Shown in pieces: positions 21,568 through 54,540 of a stretch of 64,000 nucleotides of DNA. The notes under the pieces were generated by a model. That model was given only the letters and a program-made list of their open reading frames with translations, was not told where the DNA came from and searched no databases. A program made the translations under genes and the position numbers. Positions within the stretch are counted from its first letter, which is position 1, and each line of letters starts with the position of its first letter. This stretch comes from a virus (lineage: Duplodnaviria > Caudoviricetes), in the IMG/VR virus record IMGVR_UViG_3300021093_000004. One strand, written 5' to 3'.

Positions 21568-21813
21568 ATGTGTTGGACCAGCGACGGTTATAAGGACACT
21601 ATTCGATATTGGCAGACCGGCAACAAAGACCTGGATATTCTGCTGAAGGGCGTTGGAGAAGTCAGTGAACAAGTATGTCTAGACTTCGGCTGCGGAATAG
21701 GAAGGCTGACTATTCATGCCAAAGAAGCATTCAGGAAAGTACATGGAATTGATATATCAAAAACGGTTATTGATATAACCAAGAATAACGAAAGTGATTC
21801 ATTAGACACCTGA
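21568..21813 (+). pseudogene. Truncated class I SAM methyltransferase fragment
   Basis: Contains motif I CLDFGCGIGRLT and motif II VHGIDIS, but stops after 81 aa. Confidence 0.6.
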
Positions 21814-22196: not shown

Positions 22197-22919
22197 ATGT
22201 CAGATCCCATATGGGTCGGTTCTCTCGACGATATTCGACATGGCGAAGCTGCATTAGCGGCTATCAAAGAACAAAGTGACGTCGATCGCTGGGTCGATGG
22301 TCAAGGTATCATTCAAGTTGATAGAAATAGATGGGAAGCCGCCCAAAAGTTCGAACGACAAGGCTGGATGAACGCATGGGCCTCTGATTCTGATGATCGC
22401 AGCCGCGAGCACCACCAATTGTTTGATGGCTATAATGCAGTTCCACCAAATCTTGGTAACATATTAGAAGTTGGCTGTGGTCCGTTCACTCAAACGCGGA
22501 CGATCTTATCTGCCCGCTCTGCAACTTCGATTACTCTACAAGATCCGTTGATTAACGACTATCTTCATCATCGGCATTGTAGTTATACCAATCGCCGATT
22601 GCATGATATTCCGGTGACGTTAGTCCCAATGATGCTTGAGTATTTCACACCACCGGAAGAATTCGATACTGTGGTGTGTATCAATGTTTTGGAGCACACC
22701 ATGGACGTGAAAGTGTGTCTTCAACATATGCTCGCGGCACTGAAGCCGGGCGGAATATTGATTTTTGGGGAGCGAATTTACGACGACTTCGATCCTACGA
22801 GATTATATTGTATCGGGCACCCCATTCGGATTTGCAAAGCGATTGTTGACGAATTCAAAAAGAATTTCAGGATGCTTTTTGAGCGTAGTGATAATGGCTA
22901 TTTCATAGGTCAGAGATGA
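22197..22919 (+). CDS. Class I SAM-dependent methyltransferase
   Basis: ILEVGCGP, FDTVVCINVLEH, LAALKPGGILIFGE. Confidence 0.85.
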   Translation: MSDPIWVGSLDDIRHGEAALAAIKEQSDVDRWVDGQGIIQVDRNRWEAAQKFERQGWMNAWASDSDDRSREHHQLFDGYNAVPPNLGNILEVGCGPFTQTRTILSARSATSITLQDPLINDYLHHRHCSYTNRRLHDIPVTLVPMMLEYFTPPEEFDTVVCINVLEHTMDVKVCLQHMLAALKPGGILIFGERIYDDFDPTRLYCIGHPIRICKAIVDEFKKNFRMLFERSDNGYFIGQR

Positions 22920-22986
22920 GTCTCTTTGACATATGAACCAGTGGGCACTTGTTTTAACATACTCGCTCCACGTGTTAGGAGCGTAT

Positions 22987-23595
22987 ATGAACCTTTTCAT
23001 ACTGAATGTTGATCCACGTCAAGCGGCTATCGAGAACTGCGATAAGCATGTTTGTAAGATTATCCTCGAAGCCGCCGATATGTTGTGTTTAGCTCATTGG
23101 CACTTCGATTTTCCACGCATCGCACAAGCCCCGCAGATTCTTAGAGAATCTCGAATGGTTGTCAATGACAAGGGCACCCATCGGTGCGTTTGGCGGTATC
23201 GCCCCCAGAGTCAGAATAACAATCATGTTAGTGTCTGGGTCCGCACGAGTCTTGAAAATTATCGTTGGACAGGGCAGCATGGTCTGGCACTTTGTGACGA
23301 ATATGAACGTCGCTATGCACACACATTGCGTAAGAAGGGTTTACTGCATCATCAGACCCGACCAATTATGGAGTGGTTCGCGAAGAATGAACCACCGATC
23401 CAGTCTGTTGACAGAACGCCTTTTCGCCAAGCGGTAGCAGAAGATTGCTACAATTCCGACATTGTTACTGCATATCGTGAATATTATGTGAGATACAAGG
23501 TACGATTTGCTAAATGGCGATTGGGTAATGTACCAGAATGGTTTACGGATGGTGTAAGGGCAAATCTTACTTCTTTTCCATCTTCCGCAACTTAG
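22987..23595 (+). CDS. Pyrimidine-dimer DNA glycosylase / endonuclease V-like family protein
   Basis: MNLFILNVDPRQAA..NCDKHVCKIILEAADMLCLAH, YRPQSQNNNHVSVWVRTSLENYRW, D.VTAYREYY. Start placed at ATG 22987. Confidence 0.8.
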   Translation: MNLFILNVDPRQAAIENCDKHVCKIILEAADMLCLAHWHFDFPRIAQAPQILRESRMVVNDKGTHRCVWRYRPQSQNNNHVSVWVRTSLENYRWTGQHGLALCDEYERRYAHTLRKKGLLHHQTRPIMEWFAKNEPPIQSVDRTPFRQAVAEDCYNSDIVTAYREYYVRYKVRFAKWRLGNVPEWFTDGVRANLTSFPSSAT

Positions 23596-23730: not shown

Positions 23731-24186
23731 TTATAACGAAACGTCTTCATCAGTCAAATAATAGGTAGCTCCGAAACCCTCACGAAATCCGTGCTTTTTA
23801 TAGATTTGGGCAGACCCTTCCGTCGAAGATAGGTACAATCCAGCCCCATGGTCTGCGGCTACGGACTTTAAACCTCTTATGACTTCTGATCCAATTCCAG
23901 GATGGGCGGTTGCTAAACTTCCTATTCTTAAATAATCGCCCTTGGGCATCCCTTCAGAGTCTCCATGATCTGGTGCTTTCCAGAGACTAGCCACTCCTAC
24001 AAGCTTGCCGCTGTGATCTCTAAATGCATGAACATCGAACCATTTCGGAGAATCACCTGTGGCAGCCGATAGGGCTCGTTGCAATCTTTCTCCGTCTGGA
24101 AACGAATTTAGAATTTCATATACGATTGTTCTTCCATCTAACACTTGACTTCGAAGCCTATTTTCATCTATTATTCGTAGTCGCAT
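23731..24186 (-). CDS. GNAT-family acetyltransferase with MRLRIIDE N-terminal tag
   Basis: KLVGVASLW, LRIGSLATAHPGIGSEVI, LYLSSTEGSAQIYKKHGF. Confidence 0.72.
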   Translation of the reverse strand: MRLRIIDENRLRSQVLDGRTIVYEILNSFPDGERLQRALSAATGDSPKWFDVHAFRDHSGKLVGVASLWKAPDHGDSEGMPKGDYLRIGSLATAHPGIGSEVIRGLKSVAADHGAGLYLSSTEGSAQIYKKHGFREGFGATYYLTDEDVSL

Positions 24187-24222: not shown

Positions 24223-24296
24223 GCCGCTATCAGCTAGAAACCAAGGCTACCCGGTTCTAAGCCGGGTAACGGTGGGTTCGAATCACCATAGCGGTA
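24223..24296 (+). tRNA. Atypical tRNA with CUA anticodon (amber suppressor-like)
   Basis: Acceptor GCCGCTA/TAGCGGT + A73, D stem AGCT/GGCT, anticodon stem (A)CCCGG/CCGGG(T) around a 7-nt loop TT-CTA-AG, and TTCGAAT in an irregular T arm. Confidence 0.6.
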
Positions 24297-24299
24297 TAC

Positions 24300-24370
24300 G
24301 TGACTGCAACTCAGCGGTATTAGAGCACCGCCTTGATAAGACGGGGGTCGTTCGATCCGGACCAGTCGCA
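24300..24370 (+). pseudogene. Degenerate tRNA-Ile(GAU)
   Basis: Acceptor GTGACTG/CAGTCGC and loop TT-GAT-AA. Has a C-A mismatch in the anticodon stem and an A-C mismatch in the D stem, and the 5' strand of the T stem is shortened. Confidence 0.65.
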
Positions 24371-24874
24371 CTAGATGGTTTTACGCCGTGGAAGATGCTT
24401 AGTTTTAGGTCGTGGCTTCTTCTTCCCGAACTTCAAGCCATGAGGACCGGGGGTTTGGGATTCCACGACTTCAGACTGCATTACGGGTGATTCAACAACC
24501 GGCTCAACTGCGGCTGGAGCTTCAGTAGGGGGAATTCTACTAACCGGTTCTTCGGCGGGAGGCAATTCAGGCTCTGGTTCGCCCTTTGGCTCTGGTGGGG
24601 GAGTTCGTGTTTCTGCCACTTCTTGTGGCTTCTCTTGCGTCAGAACGGGATCGACGGGCTTCTGGGCCTCTTCGGTCTTAAGTGGCTTTTCGGACTTCGG
24701 AGAAGCCTCGACGAGCTTTTCGGTAGCCGGTTGTTCGGCCACGACAGGCTTTTCGGACTTCGGAGAAGCCTCGACGAGCTTTTCGGTAGCCGGTTGTTCG
24801 GCCACGACGGGCTTTTCGGCCTTAGTAGCTGGCTTATCGGAAGATTTTTCAGTAGGTTTCTTGGTTTCGTCCAT
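24371..24874 (-). CDS. Low-complexity Glu/Pro/Lys-rich protein
   Basis: SD AGGAGAAGG precedes MDETKKP; contains an internal 21-aa duplication. Confidence 0.7.
   Translation of the reverse strand: MDETKKPTEKSSDKPATKAEKPVVAEQPATEKLVEASPKSEKPVVAEQPATEKLVEASPKSEKPLKTEEAQKPVDPVLTQEKPQEVAETRTPPPEPKGEPEPELPPAEEPVSRIPPTEAPAAVEPVVESPVMQSEVVESQTPGPHGLKFGKKKPRPKTKHLPRRKTI
24684..24819. repeat. 63-bp tandem duplication within CDS
   Basis: GGCTTTTCGGACTTCGGAGAAGCC... starts at 24684 and 24747, with a partial third copy at 24810. Confidence 0.92.
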
Positions 24875-24907
24875 TAATTCCTTCTCCTGTATAATAGATT
24901 TGCCCAT

Positions 24908-24988
24908 GTACATGTGGTGGAATGGTAGACACGCTGGTCTTAGGAGCCAGTGCCGTAAGGTGTGAGGGTCCGAGTCCCTCCGTCCACA
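24908..24988 (+). tRNA. tRNA-Leu(UAG), degenerate
   Basis: Anticodon arm CTGGT-CTTAGGA-GCCAG and long variable arm. Two acceptor-stem mismatches; the T loop reads TCCGAGT. Confidence 0.75.
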
Positions 24989-25079
24989 CTATTTAAGTAC
25001 CGTCAGCCGCAAGGCTACCATCGTGGAAATATCACGAAGGCGATGATCGTAGCCACAGTCCTTACTAAAGGCTCATAAT

Positions 25080-25162
25080 GGTCGTGTGGTGGAATGATAG
25101 ACACGGGGGTCTCAAAAGCCGCTGATCGTAAGATCGTGAGGGTTTAACTCCCTCCTTGACTA
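25080..25162 (+). tRNA. tRNA-Leu(CAA), degenerate
   Basis: GGGGT-CTCAAAA-GCCGC with a G-G mismatch, long variable arm, T loop TTTAACT. Confidence 0.7.
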
Positions 25163-25167
25163 TTATA

Positions 25168-25241
25168 GGGCGTTTAGCTCAGTTGGTAGAGCATCTGCTC
25201 GACACGCAGAAGGTGCACTGGTTCTACTCCAGTAATGCCCA
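25168..25241 (+). tRNA. tRNA-Val(GAC)
   Basis: Acceptor GGGCGTT/AATGCCC, anticodon arm TCTGC-TCGACAC-GCAGA (C rather than U at position 33), T arm ACTGG-TTCTACT-CCAGT. Confidence 0.85.
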
Positions 25242-25252
25242 CTGTATTTTAC

Positions 25253-25334
25253 GGAGGGTATCCGAATGATCAGGAAGCCGTTTCGAAAACAGCCGGGTCG
25301 AAAGGCTTTTAGGGTTCGAATCCCTTGTCCTCCG
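25253..25334 (+). tRNA. tRNA-Ser(CGA)
   Basis: Acceptor GGAGGGT/GTCCTCC + G73, anticodon arm GCCGT-TTCGAAA-ACAGC with one mismatch, long variable arm, TTCGAAT. Confidence 0.75.
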
Positions 25335-25342
25335 CTTGATAG

Positions 25343-25973: not shown

Positions 25974-26058
25974 GACCGGATGGTGGAATGGTAGACACTA
26001 GGGACTTAAAATCCCTTGCTCTGTAACGGGCGTGAGGGTTCGACTCCCTCTCCGGTCA
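25974..26058 (+). tRNA. tRNA-Leu(UAA)
   Basis: Perfect acceptor GACCGGA/TCCGGTC, anticodon arm AGGGA-CTTAAAA-TCCCT, long variable arm, T arm GAGGG-TTCGACT-CCCTC. Confidence 0.95.
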
Positions 26059-26066
26059 CTGAATCT

Positions 26067-26092
26067 GGAGGGTATCTGAATGGTTAGGAAGC
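26067..26092 (+). pseudogene. 5' fragment of a tRNA-Ser-like gene
   Basis: GGAGGGTATCTGAATGGTTAGGAAGC closely matches the 5' end of the tRNA at 25253, but no anticodon or T arm follows. Confidence 0.5.
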
Positions 26093-50594: not shown

Positions 50595-51014
50595 ATGAAA
50601 CGGATCAAGGCTTACAAACTCGAACTCGCTGAACCTGCACTATGGGTACGACGTGCCGACAGTCGAGCCGTGTTCCACGCCATAGAGTTCATTGAGGATG
50701 CTCTGACGGACGATGGCGAAATGAAATTAGTCCATATCCGCCACAAAGTCGAGCTTGCTGATCCTTCCAACGATGTTATCGCTCTGGTTGGATCAGTGAG
50801 AACGTGCCTAAAAAGCGGTAGAATAGAACCGCAGCCGCCGTCATTGTGGTATTGGAATGGTCAATTTTGGCTTCAGGCTGTGGATAAATTGCGAATTCCT
50901 TATTACAAGCTTCAAATTCGCCAATACGACAAAAAGCAGCACGCACTCTACCCAATAGCTATTGAAAATGCCGACGAATTGTTGGCTACTCTCAAATCGG
51001 GGATGGAAGACTAA
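50595..51014 (+). CDS. Hypothetical protein
   Basis: 139-aa ORF. Confidence 0.6.
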   Translation: MKRIKAYKLELAEPALWVRRADSRAVFHAIEFIEDALTDDGEMKLVHIRHKVELADPSNDVIALVGSVRTCLKSGRIEPQPPSLWYWNGQFWLQAVDKLRIPYYKLQIRQYDKKQHALYPIAIENADELLATLKSGMED

Positions 51015-51316
51015 TGGGTCCAATTACTCCCTCGAATTTCCTGTATTCGAAAGAGGGCGGCGATCTGGTGTTTAGAGCCGGGTCGGTGGAGTTATTCAGA
51101 TCATCAATCGTCGCAATCGCGTACATTAAGATGCTGGATAGACTGTAGCCGCACAAGCACGGGCCGATGGATCTAGTTCGTGAGTGGGAACAGCGAGCAC
51201 GACACTATTGGACCTCTCTTCGTATGGCCGCTGATGATTCGAATAATATCATACACACTCCTGGATTTCTAGGAATGTTTTATAAATCTTCATTAACCAA
51301 TCAATACGTGGTGTAA
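51014..51316 (+). pseudogene. 100-codon ORF interrupted by one in-frame TAG (51146-51148)
   Basis: TAATG-coupled start; MGPITPSNF...IKMLDRL*PHKHGPMDLVREWEQRARHYW...QYVV-TAA. Confidence 0.5.
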
Positions 51317-54345: not shown

Positions 54346-54540
54346 GTGGACTCCATCGAATGTGTAATTACGTATAATGACGCTGAATTTGGTGAGCGTA
54401 CATCCATTCGTGATGCTCTCTTCGATTGGTTAGCATCAGATCATATGCGGATGTCAAATCTTCTCTAGGATCATCGCGAAATGACTCAAGTCTATCTTTC
54501 GACAATTCGAAAGGACAAGACTGATTTCAAATATTAGTGA
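54346..54540 (+). pseudogene. Small ORF interrupted by an in-frame TAG (54466-54468), ending TAG-TGA
   Basis: GTG start after GAAGGTGG; MDSIECVITYNDAEFGERTSIRDALFDWLASDHMRMSNLL*DHREMTQVYLSTIRKDKTDFKY**. Confidence 0.4.

What the first reader, a model, noticed from the sequence alone, without database searches (positions are those of the whole stretch)
24223..24296. Atypical tRNA with CUA anticodon: candidate amber suppressor in a phage that still uses TAG stops
The only fully paired anticodon stem (CCCGG/CCGGG, extendable to 6 bp) puts CTA at 24257-24259 in the centre of a 7-nt loop. The D loop lacks GG, the variable region is short and the T arm is irregular, features reminiscent of tRNA-Pyl and of other non-canonical tRNAs. 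Core genes here end in TAG (2718, 8611, 11790, 17108, 28277), so the genome is not fully recoded. Yet two small ORFs have in-frame TAGs (51146, 54466) and two ORFs end in TAG-TGA (11790, 54537). The inference is conditional, infection-stage amber read-through that switches on or extends selected proteins. An alternative is a decayed tRNA-Arg(UCU), since deleting CC from CCGGCCTTCTAAGCCGG would give this loop.
Basis: partly seen in the sequence, partly recalled or inferred. Interest (0 to 1): 0.8.

Follow-up and report, generated by a model that had tools for sequence, protein, structure and literature searches.

The report
Irregular amber-anticodon tRNA in jumbo phage
A large lake phage that uses the ordinary genetic code carries a misshapen tRNA gene whose anticodon reads the stop codon UAG; it may let the phage read through a stop inside one small conserved gene, but it could equally be a decaying tRNA copy.

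Summary
Window 24223-24296 (+) is a tRNA-derived sequence with CTA at 24257-24259, centred in a canonical 7-nt anticodon loop. It falls just below detection thresholds: Rfam tRNA gives 24.8 bits against a cut-off of 29, and ARAGORN calls it only at a relaxed threshold, as the single extra call.

The host genome is a novel jumbo phage of at least 235 kb from lake-water metagenomes. It uses the standard code: 11 of 58 long ORFs end in TAG, including the portal gene.

The canonical cloverleaf is poor, with 2 of 5 T-stem pairs and no G18G19. A shifted, fully paired cloverleaf is about 11-12 kcal/mol better. It has an 8-bp acceptor stem, a 1-nt linker, a 6-bp anticodon stem, a 3-nt variable loop and a 4-bp T stem. 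The tRNA-Ser in the same array also folds 8/4, a class known from phage tRNA clusters.

One proposed client is real. ORF 51014-51316 has homologues that span its in-frame TAG. The second proposed client (54466) and the TAG-TGA tandem stops have no support.

No relative carrying this tRNA and no RNA data were found, so a weak amber suppressor (about 0.4) and a pseudo-tRNA (about 0.38) stay nearly level. It is not tRNA-Pyl. Earlier notes from this scan report tRNA(CUA) beside amber-gated genes in other large phages.

The parts
24223..24296 (+). tRNA-like gene with anticodon CUA (74 nt, no encoded CCA, discriminator A)
   Evidence: Rfam tRNA 24.8 bits. It is the only extra ARAGORN call at -ps90. 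MFE z-score is -3.27.
24257..24259 (+). anticodon CTA in the 7-nt loop TTCTAAG (U33 and A37 present)
24271..24287 (+). Irregular T arm. The canonical register gives 2 of 5 pairs. The shifted register GGTG/CACC gives 4 Watson-Crick pairs around a 9-nt loop holding GTTCGAAT.
   Evidence: Mismatch marks in the Rfam alignment; energy evaluation.
24300..24373 (+). Degenerate tRNA-Ile(GAU)-like element 3 nt downstream. It has no U8 and has mismatches in the anticodon and T stems.
   Evidence: Read from the sequence. Not reported by Rfam even at E<=10. MFE z-score is -1.38. Contigs of lake bacteria with a tRNA-Ile-like sequence overlap 24320-24350 (table 7).
24145..24174 (+). Promoter-like site TTGACT-18-TATTAT, 49 nt upstream of the tRNA
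   Evidence: 10 of 12 matches. The number of such sites in the region is no higher than in shuffled sequence.
24246..24270 (-). The anticodon arm read on the minus strand: a 9-bp hairpin plus a weak T-rich tail, lying between two minus-strand genes (terminator-like)
23731..24186 (-). GNAT acetyltransferase gene flanking the tRNA on the left. It has no homologue outside this phage.
24371..24913 (-). Low-complexity P/E/K-rich repeat protein gene flanking the tRNA pair on the right. It ends in TAG.
25253..25335 (+). tRNA-Ser(CGA) that folds as an 8/4 tRNA (A8-U74 pair; U58.U74 cannot pair)
   Evidence: Its best Rfam match is the tRNA-Sec model.
24908..25242 (+). Rest of the irregular tRNA array: Leu(UAG), Leu(CAA), Val(GAC)
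25974..26092 (+). tRNA-Leu(UAA), which is canonical, followed by an orphan 5' fragment of the tRNA-Ser (26067-26092)
   Evidence: repeat family D6
51014..51316 (+). Small conserved ORF (100 codons) with one in-frame TAG at 51146-51148: the candidate read-through client

Best explanation
**What it is.** This is a genuine tRNA-derived gene in the irregular tRNA array of a standard-code jumbo phage.

**Origin (inferred).** It most likely arose from a sense tRNA by a single change at anticodon position 36. Its anticodon arm equals the tRNA-Glu(CUC) arm except at that base.

**Fold (inferred).** It most likely folds not as a 7/5 cloverleaf but in a shifted register: an 8-bp acceptor stem, one linker nucleotide, a 6-bp anticodon stem, a 3-nt variable loop and a 4-bp T stem. 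The acceptor branch is then 12 bp, as in the 8/4 tRNA-Ser of the same array.

**Function (inferred).** It would be transcribed with the neighbouring Ile-like element, matured by host RNase P and the host CCA-adding enzyme, and charged by a host synthetase that tolerates CUA. It would then act as a weak amber suppressor.

**Consequence.** Ordinary TAG-terminated genes would be only mildly affected. The small conserved gene 51014-51316, interrupted by CTG-TAG-C, could still be made full length.

**Shown:** the tRNA ancestry, the anticodon, the alternative pairing, the standard code and the TAG inside a conserved gene.

**Inferred:** transcription, folding register, charging, decoding, and the link between the tRNA and that gene.
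For: - **tRNA ancestry is statistically secure**. This is the top sub-threshold ARAGORN candidate.
- **The parts needed for decoding and charging are intact.** The acceptor stem is 7-8 bp, the anticodon stem is 5-6 G-C-rich bp, the loop has 7 nt with U33 and A37, and the T-loop sequence matches the consensus.
- **All stem mismatches fall in one stem, and a shift of two positions on its 5' strand restores it.** GGUG/CACC pairs, and U8-A and A26-U44 pairs are added. The shifted fold scores -26.8 to -28.2 kcal/mol against -16.0 for the canonical fold. I estimate the chance of this at roughly 0.01-0.03, judged after the fact.
- **The tRNA-Ser(CGA) of the same array is an 8/4 tRNA**. 8/4 tRNA-Ser and class-I 8/4 tRNA-His with A73 are documented in phage tRNA clusters, and 8/4 tRNAs decode in E. 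coli (PMC5389517).
- **The array shows structural selection, not only decay.** Leu(CAA) has changed the tertiary pair G19-C56 to A19-U56, and the acceptor stems of the three Leu tRNAs differ by compensatory changes.
- **ORF 51014-51316 has homologues that span its TAG.** A 111-aa homologue (64% identity) and three distant ones cross it. The invariant KHG motif lies downstream. dN/dS is 0.11 upstream and 0.32 downstream. The syntenic relative has ATT at that codon.
- **A related standard-code jumbo phage carries a well-formed tRNA(UCA)** (55.7 bits). Suppressor tRNAs in standard-code phages are on record (bioRxiv 10.1101/2021.08.26.457843).
Against: - **It fails both detection thresholds.** It scores below Rfam's gathering score and below ARAGORN's default.
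- **It lacks G18G19.**
- **The shifted fold needs an unusual T arm.** That means either a 9-nt T loop, for which I know no precedent, or a 13-bp branch.
- **It sits among decaying sequence.** It lies 3 nt from a clearly degenerate Ile-like element, in a block that also holds a tRNA-Ser 5' fragment and a truncated methyltransferase remnant.
- **There is no genome-level adaptation to read-through.** TAG ends 19% of long ORFs, including the portal gene. Extensions after TAG (median 16 codons) are no shorter than after TGA (12) or TAA (21.5).
- **Only one TAG-interrupted gene was found, and it also carries an 11-codon deletion**. It may simply be a pseudogene.
- **No selection test is possible.** All recovered copies of the locus are 100% identical, and no relative carries the tRNA.
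- **The tRNA sits between two minus-strand genes with no promoter directly in front of it**.
Confidence: 0.4

Rival explanations
1. Decaying pseudo-tRNA. A former sense tRNA of the array (Glu-, Gln- or Lys-type) has lost selection. The CUA anticodon, the lost G18G19 and the broken T stem are random lesions. The TAG in ORF 51014-51316 is an unrelated nonsense mutation in a dispensable gene.
For: - Scores are below threshold.
- Two universally conserved tertiary nucleotides are missing, and 3 of 5 T-stem pairs are broken.
- The immediate neighbour is a more degraded tRNA-Ile-like element. The array also holds an orphan tRNA-Ser 5' fragment and lesioned Leu tRNAs.
- A methyltransferase remnant lies in the same accessory block.
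- The neighbouring GNAT gene has no homologue in the protein database, and two relatives have different gene orders around the DenV-like gene.
- TAG use shows no adaptation to read-through.
- The TAG-bearing ORF also has an 11-codon deletion and a higher downstream dN/dS.
Against: - The lesions are not scattered. Acceptor, D and anticodon stems are all intact, and the 'broken' T stem re-pairs perfectly in a shifted register.
- The anticodon loop keeps every canonical feature.
- The same array contains a deliberate 8/4 tRNA and a compensated tertiary pair.
Confidence: 0.38
2. tRNA-shaped element with a job other than decoding. Possibilities are an RNase P/Z processing site, a decoy for host tRNA-targeting nucleases, or, on the minus strand, a terminator or attenuator hairpin between the repeat-protein gene and the GNAT gene.
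For: - Read on the minus strand, the anticodon arm is a 9-bp G-C-rich hairpin followed by CTTGGTTTCT. It lies about 100 nt after the TAG stop of the upstream minus-strand gene and 60 nt before the GNAT start.
- The minus strand folds more stably than the plus strand (-32.4 kcal/mol, z = -4.65).
- Irregular tRNAs that are charged but not used in translation, or that act as non-coding RNAs, have been reported (PMC5389517).
Against: - The T tract is weak.
- A terminator needs neither a 7-8 bp acceptor helix, nor a consensus GTTCGAATC T loop on the opposite strand, nor a canonical 7-nt anticodon loop.
- No defence or nuclease context was identified nearby.
Confidence: 0.12
3. A tRNA-Pyl-like or otherwise orthogonal tRNA that inserts a non-standard amino acid at UAG using a phage- or host-encoded dedicated synthetase.
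For: In the shifted fold it shares four features with tRNA-Pyl: a 6-bp anticodon stem, a 3-nt variable loop, one nucleotide between the acceptor and D stems, and no G18G19 (PMC7609411).
Against: [quoted passage not shown]
- The D loop has 9 nt, not 4-5.
- The T loop keeps the T-psi-C consensus.
- No synthetase-like gene turned up among the window ORFs that were scanned.
- The 'tRNA-Pyl' label is ARAGORN's default name for any CUA tRNA.
Confidence: 0.02

Closest known systems
Phage-encoded Sup(CUA) tRNAs of TAG-recoded phages (crAss-like, Lak and other jumbo phages; bioRxiv 10.1101/2021.08.26.457843, PMC13037316)
   Same: A phage-borne tRNA with a CUA anticodon, carried in a tRNA cluster of a large phage whose host presumably uses the standard code. 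Host synthetases are presumed to charge it. That literature also notes occasional suppressor tRNAs in standard-code relatives.
   Different: This genome is not recoded. TAG ends 19% of long ORFs, including the portal gene, and only one in-frame TAG inside a conserved gene was found in 64 kb. No release factor or synthetase was seen in the window. The tRNA itself is structurally irregular and scores below detection thresholds.
8/4 tRNAs of phage tRNA clusters: (8/4) tRNA-Ser, (8/4) tRNA-His and allo-tRNAs (Mukai et al. 2017, PMC5389517)
   Same: It has an 8-bp acceptor plus a 4-bp T stem, giving a 12-bp acceptor branch, with one linker nucleotide. It occurs in a phage tRNA cluster beside an 8/4 tRNA-Ser. 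Like the phage (8/4) tRNA-His, it is a class-I molecule with A73. Members of that class can act as nonsense suppressors.
   Different: The 4-bp stem forms only in a shifted register that leaves a 9-nt T loop. The D arm is not the long-stem/tetraloop type of allo-tRNAs. There is no long variable arm. The anticodon is CUA rather than GUG or a serine anticodon. No published sequences were available to compare directly.
Classical amber suppressors that arise by one anticodon change (E. coli supE, supD and similar; from general knowledge)
   Same: CUA can be reached by a single substitution from a sense anticodon. Here CUC to CUA fits, because the whole arm matches tRNA-Glu(CUC) arms. Cells tolerate partial suppression alongside normal TAG stops.
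   Different: Those suppressors are otherwise canonical tRNAs of known identity. This one has an altered elbow (no G18G19, shifted T stem), and its isotype of origin cannot be fixed outside the anticodon arm.
tRNA-Pyl
   Same: CUA anticodon, a possible 6-bp anticodon stem, a 3-nt variable loop, a single linker nucleotide and no G18G19.
   Different: It has A73 and G1.U72 instead of G73 and G1:C72, a 9-nt D loop, a consensus T loop and an 8-bp acceptor. No Pyl genes were seen. It is not a member.

Membership tests
Canonical elongator tRNA (Rfam RF00005) | Score at or above the family's gathering threshold (29 bits), or an ARAGORN call at default settings | tested here: not met
   24.8 bits. Not called at default settings. 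Called at -ps90.
Canonical elongator tRNA (Rfam RF00005) | 7-bp acceptor stem, 3-4 bp D stem, 5-bp anticodon stem, 7-nt loop with U33 and a purine at position 37 | tested here: met
Canonical elongator tRNA (Rfam RF00005) | G18G19 in the D loop and a 5-bp T stem closing a T-psi-C loop | tested here: not met
   The D loop is AGAAACCAA. The T stem forms 2 of 5 pairs in the canonical register. The T-loop sequence itself matches the consensus.
tRNA-Pyl | CUA anticodon, 6-bp anticodon stem, 3-nt variable loop | tested here: inconclusive
   Met only in the shifted fold. In the canonical register the stem is 5 bp and the variable loop is 5 nt.
tRNA-Pyl | Identity elements G73 and G1:C72 (PMC7609411) | tested here: not met
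   A73 and G1.U72
tRNA-Pyl | pylS/pylBCD present in the genome or the host | not testable with these tools
   No whole genome is held for this window. The host is unknown.
8/4 tRNAs (Mukai et al. 2017) | 12-bp acceptor branch made of an 8-bp acceptor and a 4-bp T stem | tested here: inconclusive
   The pairs exist (U8-A, GGUG/CACC) and are energetically favoured. They require a 9-nt T loop. No covariation data or structure probing is available.
8/4 tRNAs (Mukai et al. 2017) | Occurs in phage tRNA clusters together with an (8/4) tRNA-Ser | tested here: met
   tRNA-Ser(CGA) at 25253-25335 folds 8/4. Literature.
Suppressor tRNA of a stop-codon-recoded phage (code 15) | Many in-frame TAG codons in phage genes, low coding density under code 11, TAG depleted as a stop | tested here: not met
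   Coding density is 0.895 under code 11. TAG ends 16 of 83 ORFs. Only one credible in-frame TAG was found.
Functional amber suppressor (any origin) | Transcribed, matured, aminoacylated, and decodes UAG | not testable with these tools
   No RNA run was listed. This needs wet-lab assays.

The most novel reading that the evidence does not exclude
A class-I tRNA with an 8/4-type shifted cloverleaf and a CUA anticodon is a working amber suppressor in a standard-code jumbo phage. In this reading the D-loop GG has been swapped for CC, matched by two unpaired G residues at the 5' side of the T loop. The tRNA's purpose is to gate one or a few conserved phage genes that carry a deliberate in-frame UAG, such as 51014-51316. 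That would be translational control by a private stop-codon reader rather than genome recoding. It would link the irregular phage tRNAs described by Mukai et al. to a concrete regulatory target.
Probability: 0.22. Interest if true: 0.72.

Novelty: new variant of a known kind. Interest (0 to 1): 0.45.

Why it matters
**If functional**, this tRNA would show three things:
- Suppressor tRNAs in phages are not only tools or precursors of whole-genome recoding. They can also serve as switches for single genes.
- The translation machinery of an environmental host accepts a class-I tRNA with a shifted acceptor/T-arm register and no G18G19.
- It would add a compact, naturally evolved amber suppressor scaffold.

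**If it is a pseudogene**, the locus still documents how phage tRNA arrays turn over, by anticodon drift, fragments and 8/4 variants. It also warns that a CUA anticodon alone is weak evidence for read-through.

Tried and rejected
**Looking for relatives that carry the tRNA**
- Close phage relatives in 50,697 GenBank phage records: none. Blastn of the tRNA itself gave only an 18-nt chance match.
- Exact and degenerate DNA patterns of the tRNA in IMG/VR: no copy. An anticodon-arm pattern returned one tRNA-Pro.
- Flanking genes as queries:
  - The DenV-like gene has many homologues, but synteny is lost beyond strain level.
  - The GNAT gene has no homologue at all.
  - The PRTase-like gene returned none in IMG/VR.
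- All recovered strain copies are 100% identical across the locus.
- Laying contigs of four lake runs showed no variant in the tRNA.
- The sub-threshold tRNA-like element in relative G001 (L020:1994-2067) is similar only in its 3' half (48 of 74 identities). I do not treat it as an orthologue.

**Expression**
- No RNA holder was listed.

**Isotype of origin**
- Outside the anticodon arm no isotype stands out.
- E. coli genomes hold no similar tRNA.

**Other candidate clients**
- The second candidate ORF, 54346-54540, has no homologues.
- Other same-frame ORF pairs separated by TAG (15243, 55027, 63442) translate to non-protein-like sequence or overlap real genes.
- No PTH2-like gene or other family was detected in the small ORFs around the tRNA.

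**Code of the relative**
- G001 is also standard-code in the stretch inspected.

**Not done**
- The whole genome could not be searched for synthetases, PylS or release factors.

Full report
**1. What is there**

Window 24223-24296 (+) reads as a tRNA.
- The acceptor stem GCCGCTA/TAGCGGT has 7 bp, starting with G.U, and the discriminator is A.
- The D stem AGCT/GGCT closes a 9-nt loop, AGAAACCAA, with no GG.
- The anticodon stem CCCGG/CCGGG closes the loop TTCTAAG. CTA sits at 24257-24259, flanked by U33 and A37.
- The T loop is a consensus TTCGAAT.
- No CCA is encoded, as for the other tRNAs of the array.

Detection tools place it just below threshold.
- ARAGORN at default settings finds six tRNAs in the window but not this one.
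- Rfam at gathering thresholds finds five.
- With permissive settings the Rfam tRNA model matches exactly 24223-24296 at 24.8 bits. E is 0.096 for 7 kb against 4227 families, which is about 2e-5 for this family alone. The cut-off is 29 bits.
- With ARAGORN at 90% of its threshold it is the only additional gene. At 80%, eight more calls, presumably false, appear.

So the element is certainly tRNA-derived.

**2. Context**

The window encodes a terminase, a portal protein, a major head protein and many DNA-metabolism genes. It has no close relative among 50,697 deposited phage genomes. Identical contigs occur in many lake-water metagenomes of one 2018 campaign, the longest being 235 kb. This is therefore a novel jumbo phage.

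It uses the standard code.
- Coding density under code 11 is 0.895.
- TAG ends 16 of 83 greedy ORFs, and 11 of 58 ORFs of at least 100 aa. These include the portal gene (8611) and the 1018-aa gene (11790).

The tRNA lies in a 184-nt gap between two minus-strand genes. One is a GNAT gene (23731-24186). The other encodes a repeat-rich P/E/K protein (24371-24913).

Three nucleotides downstream of the tRNA (24300-24373) is a second, more degraded tRNA-like sequence with a GAU anticodon loop. No tool calls it.

Further right lie Leu(UAG), Leu(CAA), Val(GAC), Ser(CGA) and Leu(UAA), followed by an orphan 5' fragment of the Ser gene.

**3. Structure**

In the canonical register the T stem has only G51-C63 and G53-C61, and G18G19 are missing. 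A shifted cloverleaf is fully paired.
- The acceptor stem is 8 bp, with U8 pairing with the A that precedes the 3' acceptor strand.
- One linker nucleotide follows, then the 4-bp D stem.
- The anticodon stem is 6 bp, adding A26-U44.
- The variable loop is 3 nt.
- The T stem is GGUG/CACC around a 9-nt loop, or 5 bp if G.U closes it.

ARAGORN draws the 8-bp acceptor and the 6-bp anticodon stem. The shifted fold evaluates at -26.8 to -28.2 kcal/mol, against -16.0 for the canonical one.

Three stem lesions confined to one stem, which then re-pair in another register, are unlikely under random decay. My rough estimate is 0.01-0.03, made after the fact.

The tRNA-Ser(CGA) of the same array is also best read as 8/4. 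A8 pairs with U74, whereas the canonical 49-65 position would be U.U. Its best Rfam match is the tRNA-Sec model.

Mukai et al. (PMC5389517) described exactly such (8/4) tRNA-Ser in phage tRNA clusters. They also described class-I (8/4) tRNA-His with A73 in those clusters, and showed that 8/4 tRNAs work in E. coli translation, including as amber suppressors.

Elsewhere the array shows compensation rather than pure decay. Leu(CAA) has A19 and U56 where its paralogues have G19 and C56, and the three Leu acceptor stems differ by paired changes.

Against this, several other features fit turnover of this block:
- Leu(UAG) has two acceptor mismatches.
- The Ile-like element is badly lesioned.
- There is a tRNA-Ser fragment.
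- A methyltransferase remnant covers only the first 40 positions of its domain.

**4. Origin**

A pattern search for the anticodon arm with a free anticodon returned 24 bacterial tRNAs. Twelve are tRNA-Glu(CUC) by the matched triplet (11 are named so by ARAGORN), with the loop UUCUCAG. The rest are Glu(UUC), Asp, Pro and His, and two were not called as tRNAs.

The arm here therefore differs from a tRNA-Glu(CUC) arm only at position 36. Outside the arm no isotype stands out.

tRNA-Pyl is excluded as a family. Its universal identity elements, G73 and G1:C72 (PMC7609411), are A73 and G1.U72 here. The D loop is long and the T loop is canonical.

**5. Clients**

Reading ORF 51014-51316 with TAG as a sense codon gives 100 residues.

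An exhaustive HMMER search of 1.84 billion representative proteins found a 111-aa homologue. It is 64% identical and aligns over residues 1-100. Three distant homologues were also found.

In the alignment the TAG codon falls at a variable position (I/I/T/T), four residues before the invariant K-H-G. Conserved blocks lie on both sides.

The closest homologue comes from a syntenic contig with the same TAATG start overlap and the same downstream AAA-ATPase gene. It has ATT at that codon.

dN/dS is 0.11 upstream and 0.32 downstream of the TAG. The distal half has therefore been under purifying selection for most of the divergence. A recent nonsense mutation cannot be excluded, and this copy also lacks 11 codons.

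The base after the stop is C. From general knowledge this is the weakest RF1 context, whereas 6 of 11 genuine TAG stops are followed by T.

The other claims did not hold.
- ORF 54346-54540 has no homologues.
- Other TAG-separated same-frame ORF pairs look non-coding.
- Tandem stops after TAG are no more frequent than after TGA or TAA.

**6. What could not be obtained**

- No relative carrying the tRNA was found. All strain copies are identical. More distant relatives have different gene orders. Pattern searches found nothing.
- One related, complete, standard-code jumbo phage (exonuclease 57% identical) carries a good tRNA(UCA) plus tRNA debris. Stop-anticodon tRNAs therefore recur in this group.
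- No RNA run was listed, and the whole genome is not available for a synthetase or release-factor search.

**7. Verdict**

I rate a weakly active amber suppressor with a shifted 8/4-like fold at about 0.40. Its one identifiable client would be ORF 51014-51316. A decaying pseudo-tRNA is nearly as likely, at 0.38. A non-decoding role is at 0.12, for example the minus-strand hairpin acting as a terminator. A Pyl-like system is at 0.02.

Phage suppressor tRNAs, including some in standard-code phages, are known, and so are 8/4 tRNAs in phage clusters. The combination seen here would be a new variant.

Earlier notes of this scan report tRNA(CUA) beside amber-gated genes in other large phages. I found no such adjacent gene here. 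The candidate client lies 27 kb away.

Noticed in passing
window 25253-25335 (+): tRNA-Ser(CGA) is best folded as an 8/4 tRNA, with an 8-bp acceptor using A8-U74 and a 4-bp T stem. This is the non-canonical class that Mukai et al. 2017 reported in phage tRNA clusters. The general Rfam tRNA model does not report it; its best match is the tRNA-Sec model.
   Followed up: partly
window 25080-25162 (+) versus 25974-26058 and 24908-24988: tRNA-Leu(CAA) has A19 in the D loop and U56 in the T loop where its two paralogues have G19 and C56. This looks like a compensatory change of the tertiary 19-56 pair. Leu(UAG) has two acceptor mismatches and C at position 55. Val(GAC) has C33 instead of U33.
   Followed up: partly
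window 24300-24373 (+): A degenerate tRNA-Ile(GAU)-like element lies 3 nt after the CUA tRNA. Its core at 24320-24350 overlaps, at 85% identity or more, contigs from lake bacteria whose flanking letters look like a tRNA-Ile. It lacks U8 and has mismatches in the anticodon and T stems.
   Followed up: partly
window 26067-26092 (+): An orphan 26-nt copy (88% identical) of the 5' end of the tRNA-Ser gene lies directly after tRNA-Leu(UAA): a tRNA gene fragment.
   Followed up: no
window 21568-21813 (+): An 81-aa ORF matches only the first ~40 positions (SAM-binding motif I) of class-I methyltransferase domains. It is followed by an in-frame TGA and a same-frame 75-aa ORF with no detectable domain. 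This is probably a gene remnant, next to an intact 240-aa methyltransferase at 22197-22919.
   Followed up: partly
window 24671-24828 (-, inside gene 24371-24913): There are three tandem 63-nt repeats inside the P/E/K-rich protein gene. One lake-run contig lacks exactly one 63-nt unit (joint 24683 to 24747), which is a population length variant.
   Followed up: no
L020:1501-1575 and L020:1700-1790, 1994-2067 (IMG/VR contig of 204,794 bp with direct terminal repeats): A related, complete, standard-code jumbo phage carries a well-formed tRNA with anticodon UCA (opal-reading, 55.7 bits). After it come a duplicated tRNA 3' fragment and a sub-threshold tRNA-like element with a non-canonical anticodon loop, GGTTTAG.
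   Followed up: partly
window 22933-23595 (+): The gene just upstream of the tRNA block is a DenV-like pyrimidine-dimer glycosylase. Some homologues carry PF03013, and it matches PHROG 624. It is widespread in large uncultured phages but sits in variable neighbourhoods.
   Followed up: partly
window 15199 onward (+): The gene listed as starting at TTG 15374 probably starts at ATG 15199, with a lipoprotein-like signal peptide (MKNWLVALLALVGC...), directly after the major head gene.
   Followed up: no
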